DNA of 64,000 nucleotides from an uncultured Gemmatimonadales bacterium. Its GTDB lineage: Bacteria > Gemmatimonadota > Gemmatimonadetes > Gemmatimonadales > GWC2-71-9. The notes below the pieces were generated by a model. It did no database searches and was not told where the DNA came from. It saw only the letters and a list, made by a program, of their open reading frames with translations. Each line of letters starts with the position of its first letter. Positions within the stretch are counted from its first letter, which is position 1. This document shows positions 1-58,288 of the stretch, piece by piece. The position numbers and the translations under genes were made by a program. The stretch covers positions 448,001-512,000 of the forward strand of contig CAVZZO010000001.1 of the NCBI GenBank assembly GCA_963779755.1, read 5' to 3'.

Positions 1-136
1 CATCAGCACCGCGTTCCACAAGAACTACGACGTGGATGCCGACGGGCAGCGATTCGTGATGGTCGGAACCGGCGGCATCCCGCAGGTCATCCGGATCGAC
101 AACTGGCTGGTTGATTATCCGGAGCTCCGCAAATGA
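1..136 (+). CDS. 3' end of an upstream, probably kinase-beta-propeller, gene (partial)
   Basis: Frame 2 reads ISTAFHKNYDVDADGQRFVMVGTGGIPQVIRIDNWLVDYPELRK*. This matches the YDVxxDGxRF...NW C-terminus of the downstream paralogs. Its TGA overlaps the next ATG (ATGA 133-136). Confidence 0.8.
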   Translation, partial: ISTAFHKNYDVDADGQRFVMVGTGGIPQVIRIDNWLVDYPELRK

Positions 137-2796
137 GCGAGGACATGGCCACGCTTGCGGCCGCCCTGGCCGACCGCTACACCCTCGAGCGGGAGCTGGG
201 CGCCGGCGGGATGGCCACGGTCTATCTGGCGCACGACCTCAAGCACGACCGCCAGGTGGCCATCAAGGTGCTCCGGCCGGAGCTGGCCGCCGTGATCGGG
301 GCCCAGCGCTTCCTGGCCGAGATCAAGACCACGGCCAACCTGCAGCACCCCCATATCCTGGCCCTGTTCGACTCGGGCGAGGTGGGCGGCACCGTCTTCT
401 ACGTCATGCCGTTCGTGGAAGGCGAGTCGCTGCGCGACCGGCTCACCCGCGAGCACCAGCTGCCGGTGGGCGACGCGGTGCGCATCGCCACGGAGGTGGC
501 GAGCGCCCTCGATTATGCCCATCGCCACGGGGTGATCCACCGGGACATCAAGCCGGAGAACATCCTGCTGCACGACGGGCAGGCGCTGGTGGCCGACTTC
601 GGGATCGCGCTGGCGGTAAGCCGTTCCGAGGGCGGTACCCGGATGACCGAGACCGGGATGTCGCTGGGCACGCCGCACTACATGAGTCCGGAACAGGCCA
701 TGGGGGAGCGGGAGATCACCGCCCGGACCGATGTTTACGCCCTGGGCTGCGTGCTGTACGAGATGCTGGTGGGCGAGCCGCCCTTCTCCGGTCCCACGGC
801 GCAGGCGATTATCGCCCGGGTGATGACCGAAGAGCCGCGCTCGCTCACTATCCAGCGGCGGTCGGTTCCCGAGAACGTCGAAGCAGCGGTCTTTACCGCG
901 CTGGAGAAGCTGCCGGCGGACCGCTTCGCATCGGCCGCCGAGTTCGCCGCCGCCCTGGCCTCTGACGGGATCACCACCCGGCGGGTCACCCGCGCGATGC
1001 CTTCGGTACGGCAGCGCGGACTGCGCTCGCGCTGGATCGCGCCGGCCGCCGTCGTGGTGCTCGGCGTCGCCGCGCTGTGGGGCTGGCTCCGTCCCGGTCC
1101 CGCCCAGGTTCCCAGCCGGCAGCGGGTGGTCCTCTGGCGCACCACGGCCGCGGATTTCCTCAGTCCCAGCGCCCTGCGCATCGAGTCCCGGGTCGCCATC
1201 TCGCCCGACGGGGCCTGGATCGTCTTTGCCGACTCGGCCGGCGGCGACACCCAGCTCTTCCTCAAGGGACGCAACGAGCGCAGTGCCACGCCGATTGCGG
1301 GCACTGAGGGCGCCGCCAGTCCTTTCTTCTCGCCCGATGGAGAGTGGATCGGGTATCTGACCCACGGCAAGCTCCGCAAGGTGCGCGTCTCCGGCGGCGG
1401 CTCGATTCAGCTTGCCACCACCGGAAACACGACATATGAGGTTGGCACCTGGCTGGACGACGGGACCATCGCCTTTACCGACAACAGCGGCGGCATGTCC
1501 CGCGTCCCGGCCGAAGGTGGAGCGGTCACGGTCCTGCGCGCGCCGAGGAAGGACCACCGCGACGATCCCTCGGCTCTCTCCCCACTGCCGGGGAGCCGGG
1601 GCGTGCTCTTTACCGGCTGTCCCGGCAATTGCGCCAGCGCCTCGGCGCTGTACGCCTACGACATCCGGCGCGATACCACGCTGCTCCTGGTGCCCGATGC
1701 GGCGGGTGGGTGGTATTCGCCCACCGGCCACCTGCTCTACGTCAGCCGGGCTGGCGGGCTGTTCGCGGTGGGATTCGACCTGAAGCACATGAAGGTTACC
1801 TCGGGTGCCGTGTCCGTCGCCGACAGCGTGGCGCCGAATGGGCTGACCTTGTCCGCTTCCGGCACGGCGTTGCTCACCTTCGGCACCGAGAACTTCGACG
1901 GCTCGACGCTGGACTGGGTGTCCCGCGATGGAACCCAGGAGCCCTTCGCTCCCGACTGGACGGGAAACTTCGAGTATCCCGCCCTGGCGCCCGACGGCAG
2001 AACCGTCGCGGTGAGTATCCGGAATGGTGTGACGAAGCTCTGGATCCGCCGCGCGGATGGATCGCGGATCCGCGTAACGCACGGCGACCTGGGGAGCTGG
2101 CGGCCCAGTTTCAGCCCGGACGGGCGCAGCTTCGCCTTCATTACGGCCGACGGCGCCACATCCGATTCGGGGGCCAAGGACGCGTATCTCAGCCCGGCCG
2201 ACGGCAGCACCCCGCCGCGGCTCCTGCTCGATATGGTACCGGGGATCTGGGAGGTCGAGTTCAGCCGGGATGGGCAGTGGGAACTGTTCCGAACCGACGA
2301 TGCGGCATCGTACGGGGTGTTCTACGCCCGCCGCCTGCACGGCGATACCACCCTGCGCCTGATCCATTCGGACAGCAGCTTCAACACTCAGATGGCGCTT
2401 TCGCCCGACAGCAAGTGGCTGGCCTTCACCTCCGACCATTCAGGGCACTCGGAGGTCTATGTCGCGTCGTTCCCCGACATGCAGATCAAGTATCCCGTGT
2501 CGCAGGGCGGCGGGACCGAGCCTCGCTGGGCCCATAGCGGGCGGGAGCTCTTCTTCAAGAGCCACGGCCAGCTGATGAGCCTTCCGGTGAGGCCGGGCGC
2601 CGGGTTCTCCCCGGGGAGTGCCCGGCCGCTCTTTCCGGTCGGGCAATACGCCGATGCCATCAACCGGCAGCAGTATGACGTCAGTCCGGACGATCGCCGC
2701 TTCCTGATGATTCGCCGCCCGGCCAGCAGTGGCCGGCAGGAGGTGGTACTGGTGGAGCATTTCTTCGAGGACCTCAGGTCCAAGGTGAAGCCGTGA
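133..2796 (+). CDS. Hanks-type Ser/Thr kinase + TM + TolB/PD40-like beta-propeller
   Basis: GAGGMATVY, VAIK, HRDIKPEN, DFG and GTPHYMSPEQ motifs; hydrophobic WIAPAAVVVLGVAALWGWL; repeated SPDG/W blades. Confidence 0.93.
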   Translation: MSEDMATLAAALADRYTLERELGAGGMATVYLAHDLKHDRQVAIKVLRPELAAVIGAQRFLAEIKTTANLQHPHILALFDSGEVGGTVFYVMPFVEGESLRDRLTREHQLPVGDAVRIATEVASALDYAHRHGVIHRDIKPENILLHDGQALVADFGIALAVSRSEGGTRMTETGMSLGTPHYMSPEQAMGEREITARTDVYALGCVLYEMLVGEPPFSGPTAQAIIARVMTEEPRSLTIQRRSVPENVEAAVFTALEKLPADRFASAAEFAAALASDGITTRRVTRAMPSVRQRGLRSRWIAPAAVVVLGVAALWGWLRPGPAQVPSRQRVVLWRTTAADFLSPSALRIESRVAISPDGAWIVFADSAGGDTQLFLKGRNERSATPIAGTEGAASPFFSPDGEWIGYLTHGKLRKVRVSGGGSIQLATTGNTTYEVGTWLDDGTIAFTDNSGGMSRVPAEGGAVTVLRAPRKDHRDDPSALSPLPGSRGVLFTGCPGNCASASALYAYDIRRDTTLLLVPDAAGGWYSPTGHLLYVSRAGGLFAVGFDLKHMKVTSGAVSVADSVAPNGLTLSASGTALLTFGTENFDGSTLDWVSRDGTQEPFAPDWTGNFEYPALAPDGRTVAVSIRNGVTKLWIRRADGSRIRVTHGDLGSWRPSFSPDGRSFAFITADGATSDSGAKDAYLSPADGSTPPRLLLDMVPGIWEVEFSRDGQWELFRTDDAASYGVFYARRLHGDTTLRLIHSDSSFNTQMALSPDSKWLAFTSDHSGHSEVYVASFPDMQIKYPVSQGGGTEPRWAHSGRELFFKSHGQLMSLPVRPGAGFSPGSARPLFPVGQYADAINRQQYDVSPDDRRFLMIRRPASSGRQEVVLVEHFFEDLRSKVKP

Positions 2797-5414
2797 GCCT
2801 CGACCGCCTCGCCGCCGCCCTGGCCGACCGCTATCGGATCGAGCGCGAGCTGGGGGCCGGCGGCATGGCCACGGTGTACCTGGCCGAGGATCTCAAGCAC
2901 GACCGGCAGGTGGCCATCAAGGTCCTGAAGCCCGAGCTGGCCGCCGTGCTCGGCGCCGAGCGCTTCGTGGTGGAGATCAAGACCACGGCAGCGTTGAGCC
3001 ATCCGCATATTCTGCCGCTGTTCGACAGTGGCCGGGCCGTCGTTCCCCCTCTCCGCGACGCGGAGAGGGGGACAGGGGGTGAGGTCTTCCTCTACTATGT
3101 GATGCCCTTCATTGAGGGGGAAACCCTCCGCGACAAGTTGAACCGGGAGGGCCAGCTCGGTATCGACGAGGCGGTGAGGATCACCACCGAGGTGGCGGAC
3201 GCGTTGGACTATGCCCACCGCCACGGGGTGATCCACCGTGACATCAAGCCGGAGAACATCCTGCTGCACGACGGCCGGCCGATGGTGGCGGATTTCGGGA
3301 TCGCGCTGGCGGTGAGCGCCGCGGCCGGCGGACGGATGACCGAGACCGGGCTCTCCCTCGGCACTCCGCACTACATGAGCCCGGAGCAGGCGACGGCGGA
3401 GAAGGAGTTGACCAACCGGTCGGACATCTACTCGCTGGGGAGCGTGCTGTACGAGATGCTGACGGGGAGCCCGCCGCACACCGGGGCCTCGGTGCAGCAG
3501 ATCATCATGAAGATCGTGGCGGAGGATCCGGCACCGGTCACGGCGTTCCGGAAGAGTGTGCCGCCTAATGTGGCGGCCGCGGTGGGGAAGGCGCTGGAGA
3601 AGGTGCCGGCCGACCGGTTTGCGACGGCGAAGGAGTTTGCCGACGCGCTGGCGAATGTCCACTTCACCACGGAGGCGGCAGCAGCGGGCGCCGCAGGCGG
3701 CTATCCCCAGAGCTTCCGGAGCTGGGTCCGGAGTCCCTGGTCGTGGGCCGCCGCCGTGCTGGTGGTCGCCGCCGGTGCCTGGGCGGTGAGGGCGAACCGG
3801 GGGGCGTCCGCCTTGTCCACGGCGATTTTCGAGCCATGGACCTTCGAATCGCAGTCGATCTTCAACGCCCGCTTCGCCCCCGACGGACAGACGATGGTGT
3901 TCGATGCCATGCCCGCTGTGGGCCTGACACCCCGGCTCTTCGTGATCCGGTCCGACCATCCCGATCCCGCTCCCCTAGGGCCCGACTCGACCCACCTCCT
4001 GAGTGTGTCGGGGAGTGGAAAGCTCGCGATCCTTACACACGCCACCTACGTGGCTCACCGGTTGTTCCGGGGAACACTCGCGACGATCTCCCTGGGGACC
4101 GAGGCGCCGCGCGAGCTGGCCGCCGGGGTGCGTGAAGCCGACTGGGCGCCGGACGACACCAGCCTGGCCGTCATCCGCGACAGCGCCGGTACGGACCTGC
4201 TCGAGTATCCGGTGGGGACAGTACTCGTTCGGTCACAGGGGTATCTCTCGGACCCGAGGGTCTCGCCATCGGGCGATGCCGTGGCGTACTTCGAACATCC
4301 GGCGAAGTGGGACGACCGTGGTACCGCCGTGATGGTGGACCGCGCGGGCCGCACCGAGGCGCGCTCTCCCGAATCCTGGGGGCTTGAAGGAATCGCCTGG
4401 CAGCCGGACGGCAAGGCCATCGTGTATTCCGCTGCCGGAGCGCAGCTGGCGAGCCTCTATCAGCCGCGGGAGCTGGACCGATCTGGACGCGACCGGTTGG
4501 TACTCTCCGGCCCCGGCAATCTGGTGATCCAGGACGTCTCCCGGAGCGGCCGCCTGTTGCTGACGGAAGACCGGACGCCTTACGTGCTGGTTGGGCGAGG
4601 GACGGGTGCCCCGGATGAGAAGGCCCTGGGGGTGCGCGACCTGTCAAGCGTACCGGTGATAAGCCCCGACGGCCGGCATCTGGCATTCTCGGACCAGAGC
4701 GGGTTCGGCGGTCCCAACTACACGGTGTTGTGGCGCAGCACGGACGGCTCGCCCCCGGTTCCCCTCGGCGAGGGCGGGCCAGGGGGCATCTCCGCCGACA
4801 ACGGTCTTGTCCTGGCACTCGTGTACACCAATCCCCCGAAACTCATGCTCTACCCTACGGGTCCCGGCAGGTCACGGCGCGTCGATTCGGGACAGTTCCA
4901 GTCGCTCACGAAATCCGGTGCGCTCCGGGTCTCCCCGACGGACACCACCGTGTTCTTCTGTGGTGCGGAGCCGAAGCAGGCGGGGCGCTGCTATGTCGCA
5001 AAGCTTCCCGCCGGGACCATTACCCCGGTCACACCCCCGGGAGCCTCCCCTGGATGGCTCTCGCCCGATGGGAGTAACGTGCTCGTGAGAACGAACGGCT
5101 TCACGATCTACCCCACGGATGGCGGCCCGCCGCGGCCCGCGCACGGCTTCCGTCCGGGGGACCTCCCGATCCGGTGGAGCCCGGATGGGCACGACGTCTG
5201 GGTCTGGTCGAACCCACTCGCGATTTCGCCCATTCGCATTGATCGGATCGATCCGGTGACCGGCGCGCGCGCCGCACTCGTGAGCATCGTGCCACGCGAC
5301 CCGACCGGCGTGCGGCAACTCGGCTTCCTGACCCTGGCCGATGACCCGCACGGCTATGCATTCGTCGAATATCCCTACGTGTCGCGGCTCTTCACTGTGG
5401 ACGGGGTCCGGTGA
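2793..5414 (+). CDS. Ser/Thr kinase + TM + beta-propeller, with in-frame palindromic insert
   Basis: Complete kinase motifs, TM WSWAAAVLVVAAGAWAV, SPDG repeats; GTGA overlap with the previous gene. Confidence 0.92.
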   Translation: MSLDRLAAALADRYRIERELGAGGMATVYLAEDLKHDRQVAIKVLKPELAAVLGAERFVVEIKTTAALSHPHILPLFDSGRAVVPPLRDAERGTGGEVFLYYVMPFIEGETLRDKLNREGQLGIDEAVRITTEVADALDYAHRHGVIHRDIKPENILLHDGRPMVADFGIALAVSAAAGGRMTETGLSLGTPHYMSPEQATAEKELTNRSDIYSLGSVLYEMLTGSPPHTGASVQQIIMKIVAEDPAPVTAFRKSVPPNVAAAVGKALEKVPADRFATAKEFADALANVHFTTEAAAAGAAGGYPQSFRSWVRSPWSWAAAVLVVAAGAWAVRANRGASALSTAIFEPWTFESQSIFNARFAPDGQTMVFDAMPAVGLTPRLFVIRSDHPDPAPLGPDSTHLLSVSGSGKLAILTHATYVAHRLFRGTLATISLGTEAPRELAAGVREADWAPDDTSLAVIRDSAGTDLLEYPVGTVLVRSQGYLSDPRVSPSGDAVAYFEHPAKWDDRGTAVMVDRAGRTEARSPESWGLEGIAWQPDGKAIVYSAAGAQLASLYQPRELDRSGRDRLVLSGPGNLVIQDVSRSGRLLLTEDRTPYVLVGRGTGAPDEKALGVRDLSSVPVISPDGRHLAFSDQSGFGGPNYTVLWRSTDGSPPVPLGEGGPGGISADNGLVLALVYTNPPKLMLYPTGPGRSRRVDSGQFQSLTKSGALRVSPTDTTVFFCGAEPKQAGRCYVAKLPAGTITPVTPPGASPGWLSPDGSNVLVRTNGFTIYPTDGGPPRPAHGFRPGDLPIRWSPDGHDVWVWSNPLAISPIRIDRIDPVTGARAALVSIVPRDPTGVRQLGFLTLADDPHGYAFVEYPYVSRLFTVDGVR
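3044..3084. repeat. REP-like palindromic element inside a kinase CDS
   Basis: TCCCCCTCTCCGC-gac-GCGGAGAGGGGGA (13-bp stem) followed by CAGGGGGTGAGG; a second copy lies at 13732-13772. Confidence 0.85.
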
Positions 5415-8038
5415 GCGACGTGCCTGCCCGCCTCGCCGCCGCCCTGGCCGACCGCTACCGGATCGAGCGCGAGCTGGGCCAGGGCGGCATGGCCACCGTC
5501 TACCTGGCCCAGGACCTGAAGCACGACCGCAGGGTGGCCATCAAGGTCCTGAAGCCCGAACTCGCGGCGGTGCTGGGCGCCGAGCGGTTTGTCCAGGAGA
5601 TCAAGACCACCGCGGCGCTGAGCCACCCGCATATCCTGCCTTTGTTTGACAGCGGGCGGGCGGGCGGTCAGGCGGACGGGCGGTCGGATGACTTCCTGTA
5701 CTACGTCATGCCCTATATCGAGGGGGAGACCCTTCGCGACAAGCTGGACCGGGAAGCCCAGCTCGGCATCCACGAGGCGGTCAAGATCGCCACCGAAGTG
5801 GCCGACGCGCTGGACTATGCGCACCGGCACGGGGTGATCCATCGCGACATCAAGCCGGAGAACATCCTGCTGCACGACGGCCGGCCCATGGTGGCCGATT
5901 TCGGGATCGCCCTGGCGGTGAGCGCCGCGGCGGGCGGCCGGATGACCGAGACGGGCCTGTCCCTCGGCACACCGCATTACATGTCGCCCGAACAGGCGAC
6001 GGCCGAGAAAGAGCTCACCAGCCGTTCGGACATCTACTCGCTCGGCGCGGTGCTGTACGAGATGCTGACCGGCGATCCGCCGCACACCGGGGCCACGGTG
6101 CAGCAGATCATCATGAAGATCGTGACCGAGGACCCCGCCCCGGTCACCAAGGCGCGCCGGTCGGTTCCGCCCAATGTGGCGGCGGCGGTGAGCCAGGCGC
6201 TGGAGAAGGTACCGGCCGACCGGTTCGACTCCGCCAAGGCGTTCGCCGAGGCGCTGGCGGATCCCCACTTCAGGACCGCGCGCTCCGGCGCGGGTGGCGC
6301 GTTGTCGCCCACCGCGCCGGGCTTCCGGCCCTTGCTGCGCAGTCCCTGGTGGTGGGGCACGGTCGCGGTGGCCGCGGGAGCGGTACTGCTGGCCGTCGCC
6401 CTGCCCCGCCATGGGGCACCGGCCTCGGCGCCGTGGTTCACGGCCCAGACGTTCGATGCGCGTACGATCTTCAATGCGCGCTTCATGCCCGATGGGAAGA
6501 CGATGGTGTTCAGCGGCACGCCCGACGTTGGAACGGAGTCGCACCTGTACGTCATCCGGCCCGATCATCCGGACCCCGCCGCCTTCGGACCGGATTCGAC
6601 ACACCTGCTGAACGTCTCACAGGCCGGTGAGCTCGCCGTCCTCACGCATGCACGCTACGTCGGACGGCACCGGCTCTTTACCGGCACGCTGGCGACCCTG
6701 TCGCTTGGGGGCGAGGCGCCCCACGAGGTGACGACCGGCGTGCGCGAGGCCGATTGGGGTCCGGACGGGAAGAGCATGGCGGTGATTCGGGACAGCAGCG
6801 GCACCGACCTGCTGGAGTACCCGGTGGGGACGGTCCTGGTCCGGTCCCAGGGCTATCTGTCCGACCCCAGGATCTCGCCCTCGGGAGACGCGATCGCGTA
6901 TCTCCAGCACCCCGCCAGGTTCGACGACCGCGGGTATGCCGTCATCGCCGACCGTGCGGGGCAACCGCTGGTACGGTCGGGAGACTACCCCAGCATCGAA
7001 GGGATCGCGTGGCGGCCGGACGGGAGGAGCATCCTGTACTCGGCCGCGGGCGACGCAAGTGCCGGCGTTGCCGGCTACGCGCTGCGTGAGCTCGCCCGGT
7101 CGGGGCAGGACCGCTGGGCCCTCTCCGGCACGGGCGGCCTGACGGTACAGGACGTCTCCCCGCAGGGCCGGGTGCTGCTTACCGATGACCGGCAAATGTA
7201 CCGCGTCGTCGGGCGGGGGCCGGGCGCCACCGAGGAGACGAACCTCGGGGTGCGTAACCTTTCGGCCCGGCCGGTCCTCAGCCGGGACGGACGGTATCTC
7301 ATGTTCAGCGACATGAGCGTCACGGGAGGTTCCCACTATTCGGTGCTGCGCCGTGGCACGAACGGCTCGCCGCCGGGCCGCCTCGGCGAGGGAACGCCGC
7401 TGGCGGTGTCCCCGGACGGCGGGCTCGTTCTGGCCGGGGTGATCACCACGCCCCCCAGGCTCATGCTCTACCCGACGGGGCCGGGCACGGCGCGCCGCAT
7501 TGACGCCGGACAGTTGCAGGCATTCGACGCGTCCGCCGGTGACGTTCGCCTCGCCGGGAGCGACACCATCGCGTTCTTCTGCGGCACGGAGTCGGAGCAG
7601 GCCGGGCGTTGTTACGTTGACTCGCTGCCGCGGGGAATCCTCACCCCGGTCACGCCGCTCGGAACGTCGCAGGGAATCGTCTCGCCGGACGGCCGCAGTG
7701 TGCTGGCCCAGGTCGGCGACAGTGTGGCGCTCTATCCGCTGGGGGGAGGGGCGCCACGCCGGGCGCTCGGCGTCCGTCCCGGAGACTATCTGGTGCGCTG
7801 GAGCCCGGATGGACGGGAGGTCTGGGTATGGGCCAATTCCGGGTCGGTCGCGCCCCCGCATTTCGACCGCATCGATCCCCTGACCGGTGAGCGTGGCCCG
7901 CTGTTCACTGCCGCCTCCCGCGATCTCGGCGGGGTGCGCGGCATGTTCTGGCCGACCCTGGCCGACGATCCGCAGGTGTACGCGTACGACCAGTTGGTCT
8001 ACACATCGCTGCTCTACACCGTGGACAGTCTGCGATGA
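5411..8038 (+). CDS. Ser/Thr kinase + TM + beta-propeller (close paralog of 2793..5414)
   Basis: Kinase motifs; ectodomain collinear with the preceding gene (IFNARF, GPDSTHLL, GVREADW, YPVGTVLVRSQGYLSDPR). Confidence 0.92.
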   Translation: MSDVPARLAAALADRYRIERELGQGGMATVYLAQDLKHDRRVAIKVLKPELAAVLGAERFVQEIKTTAALSHPHILPLFDSGRAGGQADGRSDDFLYYVMPYIEGETLRDKLDREAQLGIHEAVKIATEVADALDYAHRHGVIHRDIKPENILLHDGRPMVADFGIALAVSAAAGGRMTETGLSLGTPHYMSPEQATAEKELTSRSDIYSLGAVLYEMLTGDPPHTGATVQQIIMKIVTEDPAPVTKARRSVPPNVAAAVSQALEKVPADRFDSAKAFAEALADPHFRTARSGAGGALSPTAPGFRPLLRSPWWWGTVAVAAGAVLLAVALPRHGAPASAPWFTAQTFDARTIFNARFMPDGKTMVFSGTPDVGTESHLYVIRPDHPDPAAFGPDSTHLLNVSQAGELAVLTHARYVGRHRLFTGTLATLSLGGEAPHEVTTGVREADWGPDGKSMAVIRDSSGTDLLEYPVGTVLVRSQGYLSDPRISPSGDAIAYLQHPARFDDRGYAVIADRAGQPLVRSGDYPSIEGIAWRPDGRSILYSAAGDASAGVAGYALRELARSGQDRWALSGTGGLTVQDVSPQGRVLLTDDRQMYRVVGRGPGATEETNLGVRNLSARPVLSRDGRYLMFSDMSVTGGSHYSVLRRGTNGSPPGRLGEGTPLAVSPDGGLVLAGVITTPPRLMLYPTGPGTARRIDAGQLQAFDASAGDVRLAGSDTIAFFCGTESEQAGRCYVDSLPRGILTPVTPLGTSQGIVSPDGRSVLAQVGDSVALYPLGGGAPRRALGVRPGDYLVRWSPDGREVWVWANSGSVAPPHFDRIDPLTGERGPLFTAASRDLGGVRGMFWPTLADDPQVYAYDQLVYTSLLYTVDSLR
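5655..5686. repeat. Four degenerate octamers (GGCGGNCR) inserted in a kinase CDS
   Basis: GGCGGGCG GGCGGTCA GGCGGACG GGCGGTCG; reverse complement of the TGACCGCC arrays at 44391 and 52755. Confidence 0.7.
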
Positions 8039-21491: not shown

Positions 21492-21607
21492 CCCTCGGCA
21501 CGGCGGCATCATCTACCGGAAGGGCCGAAGGCCACCTCGGTGAACTATCTTCGGGTGATGCCGGATTGGATCGCGAAAATGAAGCGGCTGGCCGACGAGG
21601 CAAACCG

Positions 21608-22612: not shown

Positions 22613-22633
22613 CGTCTTGTGCCTTGCCCCGCC

Positions 22634-25399: not shown

Positions 25400-25595
25400 A
25401 TGGCCGATGTCCTGACCAGGCAGCCCCCACCGGCTCTTCCACACGGATGCCGCAACCGGCGTCGACTACGCGCGGTACGCTGTGGCGGCCGACGGACGAT
25501 TTCTCATGGTGGGTCAGGGTGAGGGCGCAGCACGCCCCGCGCTGGTGCGGGTGGAAGGGTTCGTGAAGGACCTGCTGGAGCGGCCAGGCAGGTAG
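25400..25595 (+). pseudogene. Kinase-propeller gene reduced to its two ends
   Basis: ATG GCC GAT GTC CTG ACC (MADVLT, as in 38670 and 52784) is joined out of frame to ...RLFHTDAATGVDYARYAVAADGRFLMV...ALVRVEGFVKDLLERPGR*. Confidence 0.8.
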
Positions 25596-27143: not shown

Positions 27144-27415
27144 AAGGTGCTGCGGCCGGAGTTGGCGTCGGTCCTTGGCCCCGCCCGGTTCCTGGCCGAG
27201 ATCAAGACCACGGCCAGCCTGCAGCACCCGCACATCCTCCCCCTGCATGATTCGGGTGAAGTGAACGGTACCGTGTTCTACGTCATGCCCTTTGTGGAAG
27301 GCCGATTCCGATGGCCAGGCTGGATGACCCCGCGCTGGTGGCCGAGCGCCACACCTTCGCGGTCGGCGCGGGCCGTTTCTTCTTCAGTCTCTACGACCGG
27401 CAGAGTGATATCTGG
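27144..27415 (+). pseudogene. Two joined fragments of a duplicate of kinase 32941..35574
   Basis: 27144-27302 matches 33067-33225 (KVLRPELASV...MPFVEG); 27311-27415 is identical to 35410-35514. Confidence 0.85.
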
Positions 27416-30153: not shown

Positions 30154-30185
30154 CGTCCGACTGTCCGATCCCTGAGGTGTCGCCC

Positions 30186-32885: not shown

Positions 32886-32941
32886 TGCTCGACCGTCTTG
32901 CGGCCGCCCCTGCGGCACACGCGTCTCGGAGATTGACCTGA
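32882..32941 (+). pseudogene. 19-codon mini-ORF, probable deletion scar of a kinase gene
   Basis: MMLDRLAAAPAAHASRRLT*; the start resembles MSLDRLAAAL; overlaps the upstream stop (ATGA) and the downstream start (TGATG). Confidence 0.6.
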
Positions 32942-35781: not shown

Positions 35782-35795
35782 AGGCGGAAGGACGG

Positions 35796-44390: not shown

Positions 44391-44430
44391 CTGACCGCCT
44401 GACCGCCTGACCGCCTGACCGCCTGACCGC
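44391..44430. repeat. (CTGACCGC)x5 abutting the RBS CTGAGGAG
   Basis: Counted directly. Confidence 0.93.
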
Positions 44431-44443
44431 CTGAGGAGACACT

Positions 44444-47242: not shown

Positions 47243-47280
47243 ACCGCCGTACCGCCGTACCGCCGTACCGCCGTACCGCC
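47243..47280. repeat. (ACCGCCGT)x4 + ACCGCC upstream of kinase 47299
   Basis: Counted directly; followed by TGACCCGAGGAGG. Confidence 0.92.
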
Positions 47281-52754: not shown

Positions 52755-52770
52755 CTGACCGCCTGACCGC
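52755..52770. repeat. (CTGACCGC)x2 abutting the RBS CTGAGGAG
   Basis: Same unit and context as 44391-44430. Confidence 0.8.
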
Positions 52771-52783
52771 CTGAGGAGGATCC

Positions 52784-55456
52784 GTGGCCGACGTCCTGAC
52801 CATTCTCCAGTCCGCCCTGGCCGACCGCTATCGCGTGGAGCGGGAGCTGGGCGAAGGCGGCATGGCCACGGTCTATCTGGCCGAGGATCTGAAGCATGGC
52901 CGCAACGTGGCCATCAAGGTCCTCCGGCCGGAGCTGGCGGCGGTGATCGGGGCCGAGCGGTTCGTGCGGGAGATTCGCACCATCGCGGCCCTGCAGCATC
53001 CGCACATACTGGGGCTGATTGACTCGGGCGAGGTCACCGGGACTGCCTACTACGTCATGCCTTTCGTGGAGGGCGAATCCCTGCGCGACCGGCTGAACCG
53101 CGAGAAGCAGTTGCCGGTGGCGGACGCGGTGCGGATCGCCACCGAAGTGGCGGGGGCCCTGGACTATGCTCACCGTCACGGGATCATCCACCGGGATATC
53201 AAGCCCGAGAACGTGATGCTGCACGACGGCAGCGCACTGGTGGCGGATTTCGGGATCGCGCTGGCGGTCAGCAGCGCCGGCGGCGGCACCCGGATGACCG
53301 AGACGGGAATGAGCCTGGGGACGCCGCACTACATGAGTCCCGAGCAGGCCATGGGGGAGCGGGAGATCACCGCCCGGAGCGACGTGTACGCCCTGGGGGC
53401 GATGACCTACGAGATGCTGGTGGGCGATCCGCCGTTCACGGGGAGCACGGCGCAGGCCATCGTGGCCCAGGTGGTGACGGAGTCGCCCCGCCCGATGCTG
53501 CCGCAGCGGCATACGATTCCGCCCCAGGTGGAGGCGGCAGTGCTGACGGCGCTGGAGAAGCTCCCGGCCGACCGCTTCGCCACCGCCGCCGAGTTCGCCG
53601 AGGCGCTGGCCAGTCCGGGATATCGCACGGTAGCGGTCGCGGCCCCGGGGGCCTCTACCGCCGTACCGCCATACCGCCGTACCGCCCTGTTGGTTGGTGC
53701 GCTGGCCCTTGTCGGAGGCCTTGCCGCGTGGGGCTGGCTCCGGGCGGAGCAGGCGTCTCGCCGGGTGCCCAGCTGGCAATACATCAGCCTGGGCGACAGT
53801 GCAGCGCTGACGACGAACGGGCGCGCCATGACGATCACCCCCGACGGCAATACCCTCGTCTTCAAGGACGACCGCCAGAATGGTCTTCTGTGGGTCAAGC
53901 GACGGGGCCTGCTGGATCCGGTGGCGATTCCGGGAACCGAGCGGGCTCAGGACCCGGTCTTCTCTCCCGACGGGCAATGGGTCGCGTTCGTGGCCGATGG
54001 CCGGCTGAAGAAGATCCGGCTCTCCGGCGGCGCCGCCGTCACCCTGGCGGATACCGTCGCCGGCCCCTACGGCGGCGCGACGTGGCTGGATGACGGGACG
54101 CTGATCTACGTGTCCCGCCATCTCAACGAGCTGCGGCGGGTAAAGGAATCCGGCGGTGGCAGCAGTCTCGCGCTGCAGGATTCCACCCTTATCGGGGGTG
54201 GCATCGGGTTCCCGGTGGCGCTGCCCGGCGCACGGGGTGTGCTGTTCCAGTATTGCGGCTCGGGCTGTGTAACCATGGCGATGCATGTGCTGGATCTGCG
54301 TACCGGCCGGCAGAGGTTGCTGCTGGATGAGGTGGCCCAGGCCTGGTACCAGGCCGGCCGGCTGTTCTACGTTCGCCGGGACGGCGCGGTGATGGCTGCT
54401 CCATTCAGCCTGAAGACACTGGAGCTCACCGGAGAGGCGGCGCCGGTCCTGGAAGATGTGTCCGTCCAGCAACTGAACGGACTGGCCCAGATCGCCTGGT
54501 CCGGCGCCGGTACGCTGGTCTATGTGCGGGGAAGCGAGGCCTCGGCCGACAACATGATAGCCCGGGTCAGCCGTACCGGAATCAGCACCGTCGCGGACAG
54601 CGCCTGGTACGGTCCGTTCAATTCGATCGCCCTCTCGCCGGACGGGCGCCGGCTGGCGGTAGGCGCCAGCGCCGGGGGGGGCCTCAATATCTGGATCAAG
54701 CAGCTCGACCGCGGCAATTTCGTCCGTCTGAGCTTCGGCAATTCCGATCGGCGCCCGGTCTGGTCTCCCGACGGCAAGGTGGTCGCCTTCATCCGCGACA
54801 GCGGCAGCACCAACGCAGTCTATGCCCGCCCGGTGGACGGCAGCGGCCCCGACCGCCGCCTGGCGCAGATTGACCGGCAGGTGCAGGAGGTCTCCTGGAC
54901 CGCGGACGGCCAGTGGCTGGTGCTGCGCACCGATAACGGCACCGCGGGGGCCGGCGATCTGGTCGGGGTCCGGACGAGCGGCGACACGACGCCAGTGCCG
55001 CTCGTGTCCTCCAGCTTTACGGAGCTCATGCCGGAGGTGTCCCCGGACGGTCGCTGGCTGGCGTACTCCTCCGACGAGTCGGGCAGGAACGAGGTGTACG
55101 TCCGGCCGTTTCCCCAAACCTCCGGCGGACGCTGGCAGGTCTCGAATGGCGGGGGCGCTGAACCCAGATGGTCGGGCGACGGCCGCGAGCTGTTCTATAT
55201 CAGTATTCCGGAACAGGAACTCGTCGCGGTCCCCGTGGGCCCGGGCCCCTCCTTCTCCGCCGGCGAGCCGCGGCCCTTGTTCAACACCCGGGGCTACAGC
55301 AGCGATGGAGGGTTCCACCAGTCCTATGCGGTGGCTCCGGACGGCCAGAGCTTCTACTTCCGCATGCCGCGCCTGGCCGCGGCTTCGGGCGACGCGATCC
55401 GGATCGTCTGGGTGGACCACTGGCTACAGGAGTTGAAGCAGCGGCTGAAACGGTGA
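52784..55456 (+). CDS. Ser/Thr kinase + TM + beta-propeller
   Basis: Kinase motifs; TM ALLVGALALVGGLAAWGWL; propeller repeats. Confidence 0.92.
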   Translation: MADVLTILQSALADRYRVERELGEGGMATVYLAEDLKHGRNVAIKVLRPELAAVIGAERFVREIRTIAALQHPHILGLIDSGEVTGTAYYVMPFVEGESLRDRLNREKQLPVADAVRIATEVAGALDYAHRHGIIHRDIKPENVMLHDGSALVADFGIALAVSSAGGGTRMTETGMSLGTPHYMSPEQAMGEREITARSDVYALGAMTYEMLVGDPPFTGSTAQAIVAQVVTESPRPMLPQRHTIPPQVEAAVLTALEKLPADRFATAAEFAEALASPGYRTVAVAAPGASTAVPPYRRTALLVGALALVGGLAAWGWLRAEQASRRVPSWQYISLGDSAALTTNGRAMTITPDGNTLVFKDDRQNGLLWVKRRGLLDPVAIPGTERAQDPVFSPDGQWVAFVADGRLKKIRLSGGAAVTLADTVAGPYGGATWLDDGTLIYVSRHLNELRRVKESGGGSSLALQDSTLIGGGIGFPVALPGARGVLFQYCGSGCVTMAMHVLDLRTGRQRLLLDEVAQAWYQAGRLFYVRRDGAVMAAPFSLKTLELTGEAAPVLEDVSVQQLNGLAQIAWSGAGTLVYVRGSEASADNMIARVSRTGISTVADSAWYGPFNSIALSPDGRRLAVGASAGGGLNIWIKQLDRGNFVRLSFGNSDRRPVWSPDGKVVAFIRDSGSTNAVYARPVDGSGPDRRLAQIDRQVQEVSWTADGQWLVLRTDNGTAGAGDLVGVRTSGDTTPVPLVSSSFTELMPEVSPDGRWLAYSSDESGRNEVYVRPFPQTSGGRWQVSNGGGAEPRWSGDGRELFYISIPEQELVAVPVGPGPSFSAGEPRPLFNTRGYSSDGGFHQSYAVAPDGQSFYFRMPRLAAASGDAIRIVWVDHWLQELKQRLKR
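53657..53686. repeat. ACCGCCRT octamer repeat inside the juxtamembrane linker
   Basis: accgccgt accgccat accgccgt accgcc encodes TAVPPYRRTA; same unit as 47243. Confidence 0.8.
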
Positions 55457-55459: not shown

Positions 55460-55540
55460 CGACCCTCTCGACCCTCTCGACCCTCTCGACCACCCAAACA
55501 GGTCGAGGGGGTCTAGGGGGTCGAGGAAGTCGAAAGGGAG
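55460..55540. repeat. Inverted pair of 9-mer tandem arrays forming a long hairpin
   Basis: (CGACCCTCT)x3 CGACC, then a loop, then GGTCG AGGGGGTCT AGGGGGTCG AGGAAGTCG AAAGGGAG. Confidence 0.8.
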
Positions 55541-55546: not shown

Positions 55547-58288
55547 ATGGCTGAGATCCTGCCCCGTCTCGAGACCGCTCTGTCCGGCCGCTATACCATC
55601 GAACGCGAGGTGGGCGAGGGCGGCATGGCGACCGTCTATCTGGCCCACGATGTCCGGCACGACCGGAGGGTGGCGGTCAAGGTGCTGCGGCCGGAGCTGG
55701 CTGCGGTCATCGGCGCCGAGCGCTTCCTGGCGGAGATCAAGACCACGGCCAACCTGCAGCATCCCCATATCCTGCCGTTGTTCGACTCGGGGGAGGCGGA
55801 CGGCTTCCTCTTCTACGTCATGCCCTATGTCGAGGGCGAGAGCCTGCGCGACCGGCTGAACCGGGAGAAGCAGCTCCCCATTCCCGATGCGATCCGCATC
55901 GCGGGCGAGGTCGCCTCCGCCCTGGATTACGCCCACCGGCACCATGTGATCCACCGCGACATCAAGCCCGAGAATATCCTGCTGCACGACGGCTCGGCGC
56001 TGGTGGCGGACTTCGGGATCGCGCTGGCGGTGACCAGCGCCAGCGGGACCCGCATGACCGAGACCGGCATGAGCCTGGGGACCCCGTTCTACATGAGCCC
56101 CGAGCAGGCCATGGGGGAGCGGGAGATCACCGCCCGGAGCGACGTCTACGCCCTGGGCGCGGTGCTCTATGAAATGCTGACCGGAGAGCCGCCCTTCACC
56201 GGGCCCACCGCCCAGGCCATCGTGGCCAAGGTAGTAACCGAGGAGCCGCGGCCGCTGCTGCCCAAGCGCCACACCATCCCGCCCAACGTCGAGGCGGCGG
56301 TCCTGACGGCGCTGGAGAAGCTGGCGGCCGACCGCTTCGCCAGCGCGGCGGAGTTTGCCGCCGCCCTGAGTGACGGTTCCTACCGAACCACGTCCGCGAC
56401 CGTGGCCATGCCCTCGGCGCCGCGGCCGGGTGCCAGGCGCGGCTGGCGCAGCTACCTGCCGCTGGGTCTCGCCGCGGCGGCCGGGCTGGTGCTCGGGGCC
56501 GGCCTGCTGTTGGCCTTGCGCCCTTCGCCCGCCCCGCCGCCCACCGCCCGTTACGGGCTGGCCCTGCCCCGGGCTCAGGATCCGGACCCGATCTGGCCCG
56601 TGGTCCCGTCGCCGGATGGTTCCTGGCTCGCATACGTGGGGCCGGCCGAAAAGGGGAGACAGCTCTTCATCAAGCAGCGGGATCGCTATGGGGCGACGCC
56701 GCTCACCGGGACCCTGGGTGTGGTCACGTTCACCTGGTCGCCGGACGGTCAATGGCTGGCCTTCATCTCTGCCGGGCAGCTCCGGAAGATCCCGGTGCAG
56801 GGCGGAGCCGCCATCGCCCTCGCCGATACCACGAGCGGCAACCCGGGCATCGCCTGGTTGGACGACGGGACCATCGTGTTCATCCGCAGCGGCGGTAGCC
56901 GGCTGAAACGGGTTGCCGCCGTGGGGGGCGAGACCACCGATCTCCTGTCTGACAGCACGAGGCGTCAGAGGCCCGCCGGCCAGAGCCCGGGCGCCATCGG
57001 CTGGCCGTCACCGCTCCCGGGCGGCACCGGGGTACTGTTCTCACGCTGTGCAGCGAGTTGCAGCGGCGGCCAGGACCTCTGGGTGCTGGATTTCAAGGCG
57101 GACTCGGCCCACCAGGTGGTCCCGGGTGCCATCGAGGGCTGGTACCTCCCCACCGGGGATCTGCTCTATGTCCGGCGGGACGGCGCTGCCTTCGCTGCTC
57201 CCTTCAGCCTGCATTCTCTGAAGACCACGGGGCCGGCGGTGCCGGTGCTGGACAGCATACTGGTGATCAACGGAAACTATCCTCTCCTGGCAGTGTCGCG
57301 GTCGGGGATGCTGGTGCTGCGCCGGGGTTCTCCTCTGTCGCTGAGCCAGCAGTACCGGGCGGTCTGGGTTGACCGTAAGGGTGTCGAAAGCCCGGTGGAT
57401 TCAGGCTGGACCTTCCGGATGCCCCAGTTTGGGGGTAACTACGGCTGGGCCCTGTCTTCCGACGGGCGCCGGCTCGCCATCGGGCTCAATACCGATGCCG
57501 GTGACGACATCTGGGTCAAGCAACTGCCCCTCGGCCCGCTCTCGCGCGTTTCCTACGACAGCGCATCGGAGTACCGGCCCCGGTGGATGCCGGACGGGAG
57601 AGTCATGTTCGGTTCCAACCGCCCGGGCGAGGGTACGGGCGGGCTCTACGCCCGGCGGGCCGACGGCACCGGGTCGGATTCCCTGATCCTCCGTGCCGCC
57701 TCCGGGGTCTTCGAGGGCCAGTGGTCGCCCGACGGCCGCTGGCTCCTGTTCCGCACCGGGGGCACGATCAACCAGGCCGGCGGGAGAGATATCGTAGGTA
57801 TCCGGCCGGGCGTGGACAGCGTGCCGGTGCCGGTGGTGGTGACGCCGTACGACGAGGAAGCCATCGCGATTTCGCCCAGCGGGCGCTGGCTGGCCTACGA
57901 ATCCAACGAAACAGGGCAGACCGAGATCTTCCTTCGCCCGTTCCCCAACACCCAGAGCGGCAAGCGGCAGATTTCCAACGGAGGCGGGGTGGCGCCGCTC
58001 TGGTCCCGCGACGGCCGGGAGCTGTTCTACATGAGCGCCGGCCGGGATATGATGGCCGTCTCCATGGGGACCGGCGCCGAGCCCGCGATCGGCGCGCCGC
58101 AGAAACTGTTCCATCCGGACGACCAGATCTACATGACCACCACCGAGTTCTATACCCCGTACGACGTCGGCGCCGACGGGCGCTTCATCATGGCGAAGAG
58201 TATAACGCCGCCTTCGAGCGTCGAGTCGCCTCTGATCGTGGCGGAGAACTGGTTCGCAGAGCTCGAGGAGAAGACGGGGAAGCACTGA
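55547..58288 (+). CDS. Ser/Thr kinase + TM + beta-propeller (last gene of the array)
   Basis: Kinase motifs; TM; propeller repeats; ectodomain similar to 38670. Confidence 0.93.
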   Translation: MAEILPRLETALSGRYTIEREVGEGGMATVYLAHDVRHDRRVAVKVLRPELAAVIGAERFLAEIKTTANLQHPHILPLFDSGEADGFLFYVMPYVEGESLRDRLNREKQLPIPDAIRIAGEVASALDYAHRHHVIHRDIKPENILLHDGSALVADFGIALAVTSASGTRMTETGMSLGTPFYMSPEQAMGEREITARSDVYALGAVLYEMLTGEPPFTGPTAQAIVAKVVTEEPRPLLPKRHTIPPNVEAAVLTALEKLAADRFASAAEFAAALSDGSYRTTSATVAMPSAPRPGARRGWRSYLPLGLAAAAGLVLGAGLLLALRPSPAPPPTARYGLALPRAQDPDPIWPVVPSPDGSWLAYVGPAEKGRQLFIKQRDRYGATPLTGTLGVVTFTWSPDGQWLAFISAGQLRKIPVQGGAAIALADTTSGNPGIAWLDDGTIVFIRSGGSRLKRVAAVGGETTDLLSDSTRRQRPAGQSPGAIGWPSPLPGGTGVLFSRCAASCSGGQDLWVLDFKADSAHQVVPGAIEGWYLPTGDLLYVRRDGAAFAAPFSLHSLKTTGPAVPVLDSILVINGNYPLLAVSRSGMLVLRRGSPLSLSQQYRAVWVDRKGVESPVDSGWTFRMPQFGGNYGWALSSDGRRLAIGLNTDAGDDIWVKQLPLGPLSRVSYDSASEYRPRWMPDGRVMFGSNRPGEGTGGLYARRADGTGSDSLILRAASGVFEGQWSPDGRWLLFRTGGTINQAGGRDIVGIRPGVDSVPVPVVVTPYDEEAIAISPSGRWLAYESNETGQTEIFLRPFPNTQSGKRQISNGGGVAPLWSRDGRELFYMSAGRDMMAVSMGTGAEPAIGAPQKLFHPDDQIYMTTTEFYTPYDVGADGRFIMAKSITPPSSVESPLIVAENWFAELEEKTGKH

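What the first reader, a model, noticed from the sequence alone, without database searches (positions are those of the whole stretch)
1..58288. Giant tandem array of receptor-like Ser/Thr kinases: constant kinase, variable ectodomain repertoire
Seen: 17 intact Hanks kinase genes, a partial one at the left edge, one pseudogene and several remnants in 58 kb, all but one on the same strand. The roughly 280-aa kinase is highly similar between copies, while the post-TM parts diverge strongly or belong to different folds (12 propellers, 4 TolB-N/TPR, 1 FGE plus hydrolase). Known: such kinases are numerous in Gemmatimonadota and Acidobacteriota annotations but largely uncharacterised. Inference: the locus is a bacterial receptor repertoire, analogous to plant receptor-like kinase clusters, in which many ligand-binding ectodomains feed one shared phospho-signalling output and evolve by duplication, swapping and loss.
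Basis: partly seen in the sequence, partly recalled or inferred. Interest (0 to 1): 0.9.

Follow-up and report, generated by a model that had tools for sequence, protein, structure and literature searches.

The report
Tandem receptor kinase array, kinases homogenised
A soil-type bacterium carries a row of two dozen membrane sensor kinases whose outer sensor parts are old and distinct while their inner kinase parts keep being copied over one another, a large example of a known kind of bacterial signalling gene expansion.

Summary
The window holds 17 intact PknB-like Hanks kinase genes, the end of an 18th at the left edge, one frameshifted and truncated copy, and three remnants; only one gene lies on the minus strand. 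Twelve carry PD40-type beta-propeller ectodomains, four carry TPR, and one carries FGE-sulfatase plus a hydrolase-like tail. The array runs beyond the window, with 24 intact genes in 111 kb. Ten of them, plus a GH43 gene, are joined by overlapping stop and start codons.

The "swapping" inference is supported:
- Nucleotide identity falls from about 90% to about 40% at the end of the kinase domain.
- Kinase dS is 0.29-0.5 where ectodomain dS is saturated.
- Kinase and ectodomain trees reject each other (AU p down to 4e-7).
- In a second Gemmatimonadales genome with a rearranged array of about 33 genes, orthologous ectodomains carry different kinase subtypes.

The ectodomains are not hypervariable. 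They are old orthologous lineages under purifying selection (dN/dS 0.13-0.30).

"One shared output" remains untested. Membrane kinase expansions with periplasmic repeat domains are already described in Planctomycetota and myxobacteria, so this is a large new member of a known kind. The added finding is concerted evolution of the kinase module.

The parts
1..136 (+). 3' end of kinase gene L4 (C1:445471-448136), PD40 propeller type. Its stop overlaps the K01 start by 4 nt.
133..2796 (+). K01, kinase-TM-PD40 propeller, 887 aa
2793..5414 (+). K02, kinase-TM-PD40 propeller, 873 aa (K02/K03 kinase subtype)
5411..8038 (+). K03, kinase-TM-PD40 propeller, 875 aa
8035..10956 (+). K04, kinase-TM-FGE-sulfatase plus a DLH-like tail (DLH just under its cut-off), 973 aa
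10953..13478 (+). K05, kinase-TM-(sub-threshold TolB_N)-TPR, 841 aa
13475..15889 (+). K06, kinase-TM-TolB_N-TPR, 804 aa after start trimming
15886..18534 (+). K07, kinase-TM-divergent double-propeller ectodomain, 882 aa. No Pfam hit over cut-off; hhalign 99.5% to the PD40 ectodomain family.
18531..21491 (+). K08, kinase-TM-TPR, 986 aa
21488..22612 (+). GH43 glycoside hydrolase gene. Its start overlaps the K08 stop by 4 nt. It is the last gene of the overlapping run L3-L4-K01...K08-GH43.
25419..25592 (+). Remnant: the last ~57 aa of an L2-like ectodomain (67% identity)
25662..27142 (+). Pseudogene PS, a K10-type copy. The kinase domain is intact (ORF 25662-26657). A 1-bp deletion frameshift lies near 26546, and the copy is truncated at K10 residue 494.
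27138..27305 (+). Remnant: kinase fragment, residues ~43-98
27652..29898 (-). K09, kinase-(TolB_N-like motif)-TPR, 748 aa. No TM-like segment found. The only minus-strand member.
30186..32885 (+). K10, kinase-TM-PD40 propeller, 899 aa. Its ectodomain lineage is widely conserved.
32941..35574 (+). K11, kinase-TM-PD40 propeller, 877 aa
38670..41381 (+). K12, kinase-TM-PD40 propeller, 903 aa
41446..44055 (+). K13, kinase-TM-PD40 ectodomain, 869 aa. The ectodomain was modelled at pLDDT 90.3 as an all-beta multi-propeller.
44444..47119 (+). K14, kinase-TM-PD40 propeller, 891 aa
47299..49953 (+). K15, kinase-TM-PD40 propeller, 884 aa
51421..51558 (+). Weak PD40-like remnant (39% to K16 over 46 aa, E 4e-4)
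52784..55456 (+). K16, kinase-TM-PD40 propeller, 890 aa
55547..58288 (+). K17, kinase-TM-PD40 propeller, 913 aa

Best explanation
The locus is the core of a 111-kb tandem array of 24 intact genes, 17 of them in the window, in a Gemmatimonadales-like genome. The genes encode bitopic Hanks-type (PknB-like) Ser/Thr kinases.

Protein layout. Each protein has an N-terminal catalytically intact kinase and, in 16 of 17 window genes, one membrane-spanning segment. The C-terminal domain is presumed periplasmic. It is a PD40 multi-propeller in 12 genes, TPR in 4, and FGE-sulfatase plus a hydrolase-like tail in 1.

Evolution. The sensor halves are old, distinct, conserved lineages under purifying selection. 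The roughly 800-bp kinase halves are repeatedly overwritten among neighbours by gene conversion or unequal recombination. The exchange boundary sits at the end of the kinase domain, so linker, TM segment and ectodomain travel together. Genes are also gained, lost, reshuffled and possibly exchanged between lineages.

Inferred working (not shown). A ligand binds the propeller or TPR domain, the receptor dimerises, the activation loop is trans-autophosphorylated, and cytoplasmic substrates are phosphorylated. Because the kinase modules are kept alike, many receptors probably act on overlapping substrates.
For: Shown by calls:
- Domains and motifs. The nearest solved relative of the kinase is M. 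tuberculosis PknB (E 1e-57).
- Structure: the K13 ectodomain model has pLDDT 90.3 and pTM 0.85. Its best PDB matches are multi-propeller proteins such as tricorn, LRP6 E3E4 and megalin (E ~1e-14, TMq 0.30-0.34).
- Operon: 9 junctions with a 4-nt overlap and 1 with a 1-nt overlap link L3...K08 and GH43.
- Sharp identity break at nt ~800-840.
- Kinase identity of 91-95% beside ectodomain identity of 26-39% for K10/K13/K14/K16.
- Kinase dS of 0.29-0.53 against ectodomain dS of 1.1-1.5 for the same pairs.
- Same-codon use at identical residues is 0.68-0.81 in the kinase and 0.38-0.51 in the ectodomain, which is the baseline level.
- AU tests: ectodomain data reject the kinase clade K10+K13+K14+K16 (p 3.8e-7). 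Kinase data reject the ectodomain clade L1+K11 (p 0.003).
- Mosaic tracts: K10-K13 agree at 99 consecutive polymorphic sites, L4-K01 at 69 and L3-L4 at 59. Seven of 136 pairs reach the lowest attainable permutation p.
- Kinase identity falls with distance along the array (Mantel rho -0.25, p 0.033). Ectodomain identity does not (p 0.63).
- Second genome G069: about 33 kinases in about 125 kb, in rearranged blocks.
- The ectodomain ortholog of K07 (88%) carries an L3-type kinase (87%, against 78% to K07). The K14-type ectodomain (65%) carries a K02-type kinase (82% against 66%). AU rejects the K07+r76k pairing (p 0.0026) and the K14+r47k pairing (p 1e-60).
- Ortholog dN/dS is 0.13-0.30 in ectodomains.
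- The same ectodomain family is fused to wHTH DNA-binding domains in 5 of the 120 listed homologs, as expected of a portable sensor module.
Against: - No ligand, topology experiment, substrate or expression data exist, and the TM call is only a hydropathy scan.
- K09 in the window, and R1 outside it, lack a TM-like segment, so not all members are receptors.
- The kinase-versus-ectodomain AU test for K12+K17 is only borderline (p 0.042), and K10+K15 is not rejected (p 0.18).
- By BLAST rank, 9 of the 14 clear G069 ectodomain orthologs still have the matching G000 kinase as best hit. Exchange is therefore episodic, not universal.
- The Sawyer-type test used 2000 permutations, so Bonferroni-level significance rests on my analytic estimate rather than on the permutations.
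- G069 is a metagenome bin, so chimeric assembly across the repeated kinase segments cannot be excluded.
- The distance effect is weak.
Confidence: 0.8

Rival explanations
1. The genes arose by recent whole-gene tandem duplication. The ectodomains then diverged very fast under positive selection and the kinase stayed constrained, with no recombination involved.
For: The kinase is a constrained catalytic domain. Kinase and ectodomain identities are positively correlated overall (Mantel rho 0.38, p 0.024).
Against: - Synonymous divergence differs between the halves of the same gene: dS is 0.29-0.5 in the kinase and saturated in the ectodomain.
- The identity break is abrupt.
- K13-type and K10-type ectodomains have orthologs at 52-98% identity in other genomes, so they predate the kinase similarity.
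- Ortholog dN/dS is 0.13-0.30.
- The trees are incongruent.
Confidence: 0.03
2. The array is an immune-like or arms-race repertoire. The ectodomains would be hypervariable recognition modules diversifying against phages, competitors or hosts, as in plant resistance-type receptor clusters.
For: The layout is a constant signalling module with a variable recognition module in a tandem array. There are pseudogenes and remnants, and an IS256-family transposase lies nearby.
Against: - Ectodomain orthologs are conserved at 83-98% between two genomes whose rpoB is 80% identical at the protein level.
- Whole-domain dN/dS is 0.13-0.30.
- Hundreds of conserved K10-type homologs exist across Gemmatimonadales records.
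- Site-specific positive selection was not tested.
Confidence: 0.05
3. The C-terminal domains are not ligand sensors. They would be periplasmic scaffolds or enzymes (TolB-like, peptidase-propeller-like, FGE or hydrolase) whose activity or assembly the kinase controls from inside the cell, or that only localise the kinase.
For: PD40 propellers occur in TolB and in peptidase N-terminal domains (weak DPPIV_N and Peptidase_S9_N hits). K04 carries enzyme-type domains. A GH43 gene is translationally coupled to K08.
Against: The same propeller family is fused to a different cytoplasmic output, a wHTH DNA-binding domain, in other proteins. That is typical of sensor modules. No catalytic peptidase domain accompanies the propellers. 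GH43 does not follow the K08 ortholog in G069.
Confidence: 0.1
4. The array is an assembly artefact, with repeats collapsed or expanded.
For: The array contains about 800-bp segments at 85-95% identity.
Against: - Every copy has its own distinct ectodomain, 8.9-60% identical among propeller-type members.
- The reading frames are intact, with precise 4-nt overlaps.
- An independently assembled genome holds a homologous array with shared blocks.
- Reads could not be inspected.
Confidence: 0.02

Closest known systems
Mycobacterium tuberculosis PknB-family receptor Ser/Thr kinases (PknB, PknA, PknE; PDB 1MRU, 1O6Y, 3F69 and others)
   Same: The kinase domain is clearly homologous (E 1e-57 to 1e-45 over residues 9-275). 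The layout is also shared: an N-terminal kinase, one TM segment and a C-terminal extracytoplasmic domain.
   Different: PknB carries PASTA domains, and mycobacteria have 11 dispersed kinases (recalled). Here the C-terminal domains are PD40 propellers, TPR or FGE, and 24 genes lie in tandem.
M. tuberculosis PknD, a receptor kinase with an extracellular six-bladed beta-propeller sensor (Good et al. 2004, seen only as cited in passages of PMC2877116)
   Same: A Hanks kinase joined through a TM segment to an extracytoplasmic beta-propeller that is thought to bind a ligand.
   Different: PknD has a single gene with a single NHL-type propeller. Here the PD40-type ectodomain is about 550 aa and matches multi-propeller structures. 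No sequence match to PknD's sensor was seen.
Lineage-specific Ser/Thr kinase expansions in Planctomycetota ('Ca. Uabimicrobium amorphum', 525 kinases) and myxobacteria (PMC11032199, passages read; Perez et al. 2008 as cited there)
   Same: These are membrane kinases with a cytoplasmic Pkinase domain and periplasmic WD40 or TPR repeats. The Pkinase trees show species-specific clades, which those authors read as duplication and/or recombination. Some duplicates lie side by side.
   Different: This case is in a different phylum and uses PD40 rather than WD40. Here the exchange of the kinase module is shown directly by domain-wise dS, AU tests and a two-genome comparison. The genes form one array, with a 10-kinase run of overlapping genes.
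Plant receptor-like kinase gene clusters
   Same: Tandem arrays of single-pass receptors with a conserved kinase and varied ectodomains, evolving by duplication, unequal recombination and loss.
   Different: There is no homology beyond the kinase fold. In this array the ectodomains are conserved lineages under purifying selection, and it is the kinase half that is homogenised.
PD40/TolB-type and tandem beta-propeller proteins (tricorn protease 1K32, LRP6 E3E4 3S8Z, bacterial DPP-IV 5YP1)
   Same: These are the fold-level matches of the K13 ectodomain model (E ~1e-13 to 1e-14). PD40 repeats match by Pfam.
   Different: TM-scores are only 0.22-0.34 and sequence identity is 9-15%. There is no peptidase domain. 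The number and arrangement of blades was not determined.

Membership tests
Hanks-type (eukaryote-like) Ser/Thr protein kinases, PknB-like | Pkinase (PF00069) profile match above the curated cut-off | tested here: met
   17 of 17 window genes score 154-184 bits against a cut-off of 31.7. The pseudogene scores 172 bits.
Hanks-type (eukaryote-like) Ser/Thr protein kinases, PknB-like | Catalytic motifs: the VAIK lysine, the HRDxKPxN catalytic loop, DFG and the APE/SPE motif | tested here: met
   All 24 array genes and the pseudogene keep them in the alignment. The motif names are recalled textbook knowledge.
Hanks-type (eukaryote-like) Ser/Thr protein kinases, PknB-like | Kinase activity | not testable with these tools
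   This needs an autophosphorylation assay.
Bitopic receptor kinases (cytoplasmic kinase, one TM segment, extracytoplasmic sensor) | A single hydrophobic segment between the kinase and the C-terminal domain, with basic residues on the kinase side | tested here: met
   16 of 17 window genes have a 19-aa window with mean Kyte-Doolittle hydropathy of 1.4-2.8 at residues ~287-332, mostly preceded by R/K runs. K09 has none. This is a crude scan, not a topology predictor.
Bitopic receptor kinases (cytoplasmic kinase, one TM segment, extracytoplasmic sensor) | Ligand binding by the ectodomain that changes kinase activity | not testable with these tools
   There is only indirect support: the same ectodomain family is fused to wHTH outputs in other proteins.
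PD40 / TolB-like beta-propeller domains | PD40 repeat matches over the cut-off and a beta-propeller fold | tested here: met
   PD40 scores 32-110 bits against a cut-off of 20.9 in 11 genes. K07 joins by hhalign at 99.5%. The K13 model is all-beta at pLDDT 90.3 and matches propeller proteins.
Paralogs under concerted evolution (gene conversion) | One segment of the paralogs shares much more recent ancestry than the rest, with a sharp boundary | tested here: met
Paralogs under concerted evolution (gene conversion) | The converted segment groups by genome or neighbourhood rather than by orthology of the rest of the gene | tested here: met
   L4, K01 and K07 kinases cluster together in G000. The kinases of their ectodomain orthologs r65k and r76k cluster with the L3 type in G069. 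AU tests reject the orthologous pairing. One relative genome was compared.
Paralogs under concerted evolution (gene conversion) | Mosaic tracts longer than chance allows | tested here: met
   Runs of 59-99 agreeing polymorphic sites were found. Seven of 136 pairs reach the minimum permutation p of 0.0005 with 2000 permutations.
Fast-diversifying receptor repertoire (plant R-gene/RLK-like arms race) | Elevated dN/dS or hypervariability of the recognition domain | tested here: not met
   Whole-ectodomain dN/dS is 0.13-0.30 in 14 ortholog pairs, and conserved orthologs are found in many records. Site-wise selection was not tested.

The most novel reading that the evidence does not exclude
The uniformity of the kinase module is selected for, not a neutral by-product. 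In this reading the array is one many-input signalling hub. Dozens of ancient, distinct periplasmic sensors would be kept wired to the same substrates, and to each other by cross-phosphorylation or hetero-oligomers made from a 10-kinase translationally coupled operon, through continual conversion of the kinase cassette. Sensor cassettes would also move between lineages and receive the resident kinase on arrival. The K10 ectodomain is 96-100% identical in nucleotides to its counterpart in a genome whose rpoB is 82.5% identical, while the K10 kinase half is only 71-96% identical.
Probability: 0.2. Interest if true: 0.75.

Novelty: new member of a known kind. Interest (0 to 1): 0.48.

Why it matters
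Gemmatimonadota and Acidobacteriota are abundant soil bacteria, and their many Ser/Thr kinases are unstudied. This locus gives a concrete, well-delimited model with three useful properties.
- It contains a set of conserved sensor lineages, some found in hundreds of records, whose ligands could be sought.
- It is a natural experiment in which the same sensor is joined to different kinase subtypes in different genomes.
- It is a clear case of concerted evolution confined to one domain of multidomain bacterial genes.

If the kinase homogeneity is functional, it would mean a many-to-one wiring of bacterial Ser/Thr signalling, which differs from the one-to-one insulation of two-component systems.

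Tried and rejected
- Sequencing runs (after a size slip): no RNA holder is listed. One soil DNA run holds 0.10 of the words.
- A sample of 61 family genomes held no K13-type ortholog; the best match was 33-38%. The ortholog-bearing genome was reached through the search for related loci instead.
- I asked whether the perfect octamer repeats upstream of K10, K14, K15, K16 and the pseudogene are kinase-specific switches. They are not. G000 has 86 octamer and 193 heptamer perfect arrays genome-wide, and only 5 of the 86 lie within 300 bp upstream of a kinase start. None lies upstream of a kinase in the G069 array.
- Two rpoB dS attempts picked wrong high-GC frames. One search is the valid one.
- AU tests for L4+K01+K07, K01+K07, L2+K11 and K12+R2 on ectodomain data, and for K15+r111k and K15+r31k+r111k on kinase data, did not finish. 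They are not used.
- In one search a naming bug labelled K09 as 'K10' for TPR-type hits. This was allowed for when reading the table.
- Literature searches (syntax errors) listed no paper on Gemmatimonadota kinase arrays or on gene conversion among bacterial Ser/Thr kinases. These are word searches of an open-access library and do not prove absence.
- The search of earlier findings returned only an unrelated note.
- Considered and rejected: assembly artefact, whole-gene duplication with fast ectodomain divergence, and an arms-race repertoire (see rivals).
- No complex prediction was run, because a kinase dimer would pass by likeness to solved PknB dimers.
Full report
WHAT IS THERE

The window is G000:C1:448001-512000, at 66-71% G+C throughout. 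Seventeen long ORFs carry a Pkinase domain far above Pfam's cut-off. For four of them the longest ORF starts too early. Trimming to the conserved N-terminus gives proteins of 748-986 aa. All keep the catalytic motifs. The nearest solved relatives are the M. tuberculosis PknB, PknA and PknE kinase domains and pneumococcal StkP.

A hydropathy scan finds one TM-like segment right after the kinase in 16 of 17 genes. K09, the only minus-strand gene, has none.

The C-terminal halves fall into three classes:
- PD40 repeats over the cut-off in 11 genes. K07 has no Pfam hit over cut-off but is homologous to the same ectodomain family (hhalign 99.5%, 488 aligned columns).
- TPR in K05, K06, K08 and K09. 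TolB_N is over its cut-off only in K06.
- FGE-sulfatase plus a sub-threshold DLH match in K04.

An AlphaFold2 model of the K13 ectodomain, built from a 60-sequence alignment, has pLDDT 90.3 and is all-beta. Its best PDB matches are multi-propeller proteins. I did not determine the number of blades.

It is flanked by a kinase fragment and by the tail of an L2-like gene. A fourth, weak remnant lies at 51.4 kb.

Other genes among the kinases:
- a GH43 hydrolase;
- a multicopper oxidase (minus strand);
- an AraC regulator;
- a frameshifted Reg_prop/AraC gene;
- a Cu-oxidase_3-like ORF;
- a TetR regulator.

THE ARRAY IS BIGGER THAN THE WINDOW

The genome has 68 Pkinase matches in 4.23 Mb (65 genes by my tblastn criterion). 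Four more intact members lie to the left of the window and three to the right. That makes 24 intact genes between C1:429036 and C1:540434.

From L3 to K08, ten kinase genes and then GH43 are joined by a 1-nt overlap (L3/L4) and nine 4-nt ATGA/GTGA overlaps. This run of about 28 kb looks like one translationally coupled operon. That reading is an inference from the overlaps; no RNA data were available.

All 20 relatives searched also carry 15-62 kinase matches. Adjacent kinase-propeller genes are seen in other family members and in Acidobacteriota records.

CONSTANT KINASE, DIFFERENT SENSOR: WHY

Within the array the kinase domains are 50-95% identical, while ectodomains of the same fold class are mostly 20-40% identical. 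The extreme case is K10/K13/K14/K16, with kinases at 91-95% and ectodomains at 26-39%.

Selection on the protein alone does not explain this:
- Nucleotide identity drops from about 85-95% to about 40% within about 60 nt at the end of the kinase domain.
- Kinase dS is 0.29-0.53 in those pairs, while ectodomain dS is saturated at 1.1-1.5.
- Restricting to identical residues, to avoid alignment error, gives the same picture. The same codon is used at 68-81% of kinase positions, against 38-51% of ectodomain positions, which is the background level.

The trees disagree. The kinase tree groups K10, K13, K14 and K16, then L4, K01 and K07, then L2 with K11, and L1 with K02 and K03. The ectodomain tree groups L1 with K11, K12 with K17, and K10 with K15. 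AU tests gave these results:
- Ectodomain data reject the K10-K13-K14-K16 clade (p 3.8e-7; with K15 added, p 0.006).
- Kinase data reject L1+K11 (p 0.003).
- Kinase data reject K12+K17 only marginally (p 0.042).
- Kinase data do not reject K10+K15 (p 0.18).

Inside the kinase domain there are mosaic tracts. K10 and K13 agree at 99 consecutive polymorphic sites (nt 651-788), L4 and K01 at 69, and L3 and L4 at 59. Seven of 136 pairs reach the lowest attainable permutation p. Kinase identity declines weakly with distance along the array (rho -0.25, p 0.033), and ectodomain identity does not.

A SECOND GENOME

The K13 ectodomain has an 83% ortholog in a Gemmatimonadales metagenome-assembled genome. 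That genome (G069) has 63 kinase matches, about 33 of them on one strand within about 125 kb, again with overlapping genes.

Blocks are shared with G000 at 72-91% nucleotide identity, but order and content differ. For example, the K08 ortholog is followed by the K13 ortholog rather than by GH43, and K01 and K02 lie elsewhere.

Fourteen G069 genes have an ectodomain at least 60% identical to a G000 array member. For nine of them the same G000 gene is also the best kinase match, for one it is the second best, and for four it ranks 3rd to 23rd. The clearest cases are:
- The K07-type ectodomain (88%) carries an L3-type kinase (87%, against 78% to K07).
- K14-type (65%) and K15-type (62%) ectodomains carry K02/K03-type kinases (81-82%, against 66%).

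In a joint kinase tree, L4, K01 and K07 form one clade in G000. The kinases of their ectodomain orthologs r65k and r76k sit with neighbouring G069 genes in the L3-type clade. AU tests reject K07+r76k (p 0.0026) and K14+r47k (p 1e-60).

More distant K13-type orthologs (52-60%) also carry different kinase subtypes, by inspection of the sequences. The kinase half is therefore exchanged among paralogs while the linker, TM segment and ectodomain persist. This is concerted evolution of one domain.

THE SENSORS ARE OLD AND CONSERVED

Between the two genomes the ectodomains have dN/dS of 0.13-0.30. K13-type homologs fall from 83% to 52-60% and then to paralog level at or below 35%. K10-type homologs number at least 559 at E <= 1e-100. 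They run 98, 87, 86, 78% and then many at 52-68%, and the records that carry names are Gemmatimonadales or Gemmatimonadota. This contradicts the idea of a rapidly diversifying repertoire.

The same ectodomain family also occurs fused to wHTH DNA-binding domains (5 of the 120 listed hits). That fits a portable periplasmic sensor module.

AN UNEXPLAINED EXTRA

The rpoB genes of the two genomes are 82.5% identical in nucleotides and 80.3% in protein, with dS 0.625. Four non-kinase segments of the G069 stretch match G000 at 69-80%.

Several array genes are closer than that:
- The K10 ectodomain is 96-100% identical in nucleotides (dS 0.063), while its kinase half is 71-96% identical (dS 0.32).
- The L4 ectodomain has dS 0.18.
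- The K04 kinase has dS 0.12.

Either sensor cassettes have moved between lineages and then received a resident kinase, or the bin is chimeric across the repeated segments. One housekeeping gene is a thin baseline, so this stays open.

HOW IT LIKELY WORKS

Shown: domain make-up, intact catalytic motifs, a TM-like segment, the propeller model, gene overlaps, and the evolutionary pattern.

Inferred from established knowledge of PknB-type receptor kinases (recalled): ligand binding to the periplasmic domain promotes dimerisation and activation-loop autophosphorylation, followed by phosphorylation of cytoplasmic targets.

The genome has 8 FHA matches and 3 PP2C_2 matches, none near the array. That is compatible with many kinases converging on few partners, but it does not show convergence.

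COMPARISON WITH WHAT IS KNOWN

PD40 and TPR are listed among the domains most often tethered to prokaryotic Ser/Thr kinases (PMC2877116, passages). PknD is the solved example of a propeller-bearing receptor kinase (cited there).

Massive expansions of membrane kinases with periplasmic WD40 or TPR arrays are described for Planctomycetota and myxobacteria. Those papers also report species-specific Pkinase clades, attributed to duplication and/or recombination, and some tandem duplicates (PMC11032199 and PMC8567305, passages).

My word searches listed no paper on such arrays in Gemmatimonadota or on gene conversion among these kinases. This is a limited search.

VERDICT

This is a large new member of a known kind. 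The most useful addition is the domain-restricted concerted evolution.

Noticed in passing
window 25178-25389, 30098-30154, 44391-44434, 47243-47280, 52755-52774, 53656-53686, 55460-55526, 58291-58326: Perfect tandem octamer or nonamer repeats lie just upstream of several stand-alone kinase genes: CTTGCCGT x26.5 and x7.1, CTGACCGC x5.5 and x2.5, ACCGCCGT x4.8, and CGACCCTCT x3.6. One more (TACCGCCG x3.9) lies inside K16 in the juxtamembrane segment. Genome-wide, G000 has 86 perfect octamer and 193 perfect heptamer arrays from a few related unit families, with up to 26 copies. They are not specific to kinases and are absent upstream of kinases in the G069 array. Their role is unknown.
   Followed up: partly
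window 58447-63044: An IS256-family (Transposase_mut) gene at 60117-61322 (+) sits between two minus-strand ORFs (58447-60006 and 61368-63044). Each ORF matches part of a subtilase S8 peptidase, so the peptidase gene appears to be split by the insertion.
   Followed up: no
window 35766-36855: Two overlapping ORFs carry Reg_prop repeats and the end of an AraC-type HTH domain. This looks like a frameshifted Reg_prop-AraC regulator gene between K11 and K12.
   Followed up: no
window 30186-32885 versus G069:C2 (L020/L021, r92k): The K10 ectodomain is 96-100% identical in nucleotides (dS 0.063) to its counterpart in a genome whose rpoB has dS 0.625. The kinase half of the same gene has dS 0.32. This suggests lateral movement of a sensor cassette followed by kinase replacement, or a chimeric bin.
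   Followed up: partly
window 27652-29898 (K09) and C1:512731-514965 (R1): Two kinase-TPR members lack any TM-like segment. A conserved 'S-I-[AV]-V-L-P-[FL]' stretch of the TolB_N-like region follows directly after the kinase. They may be soluble relatives of the membrane-bound K05, K06 and K08 type.
   Followed up: no
window 21488-24005: A GH43 glycoside hydrolase is translationally coupled to the last kinase of the overlapping run, and a three-domain multicopper oxidase lies on the opposite strand next to it. GH43 does not follow the K08 ortholog in G069.
   Followed up: partly
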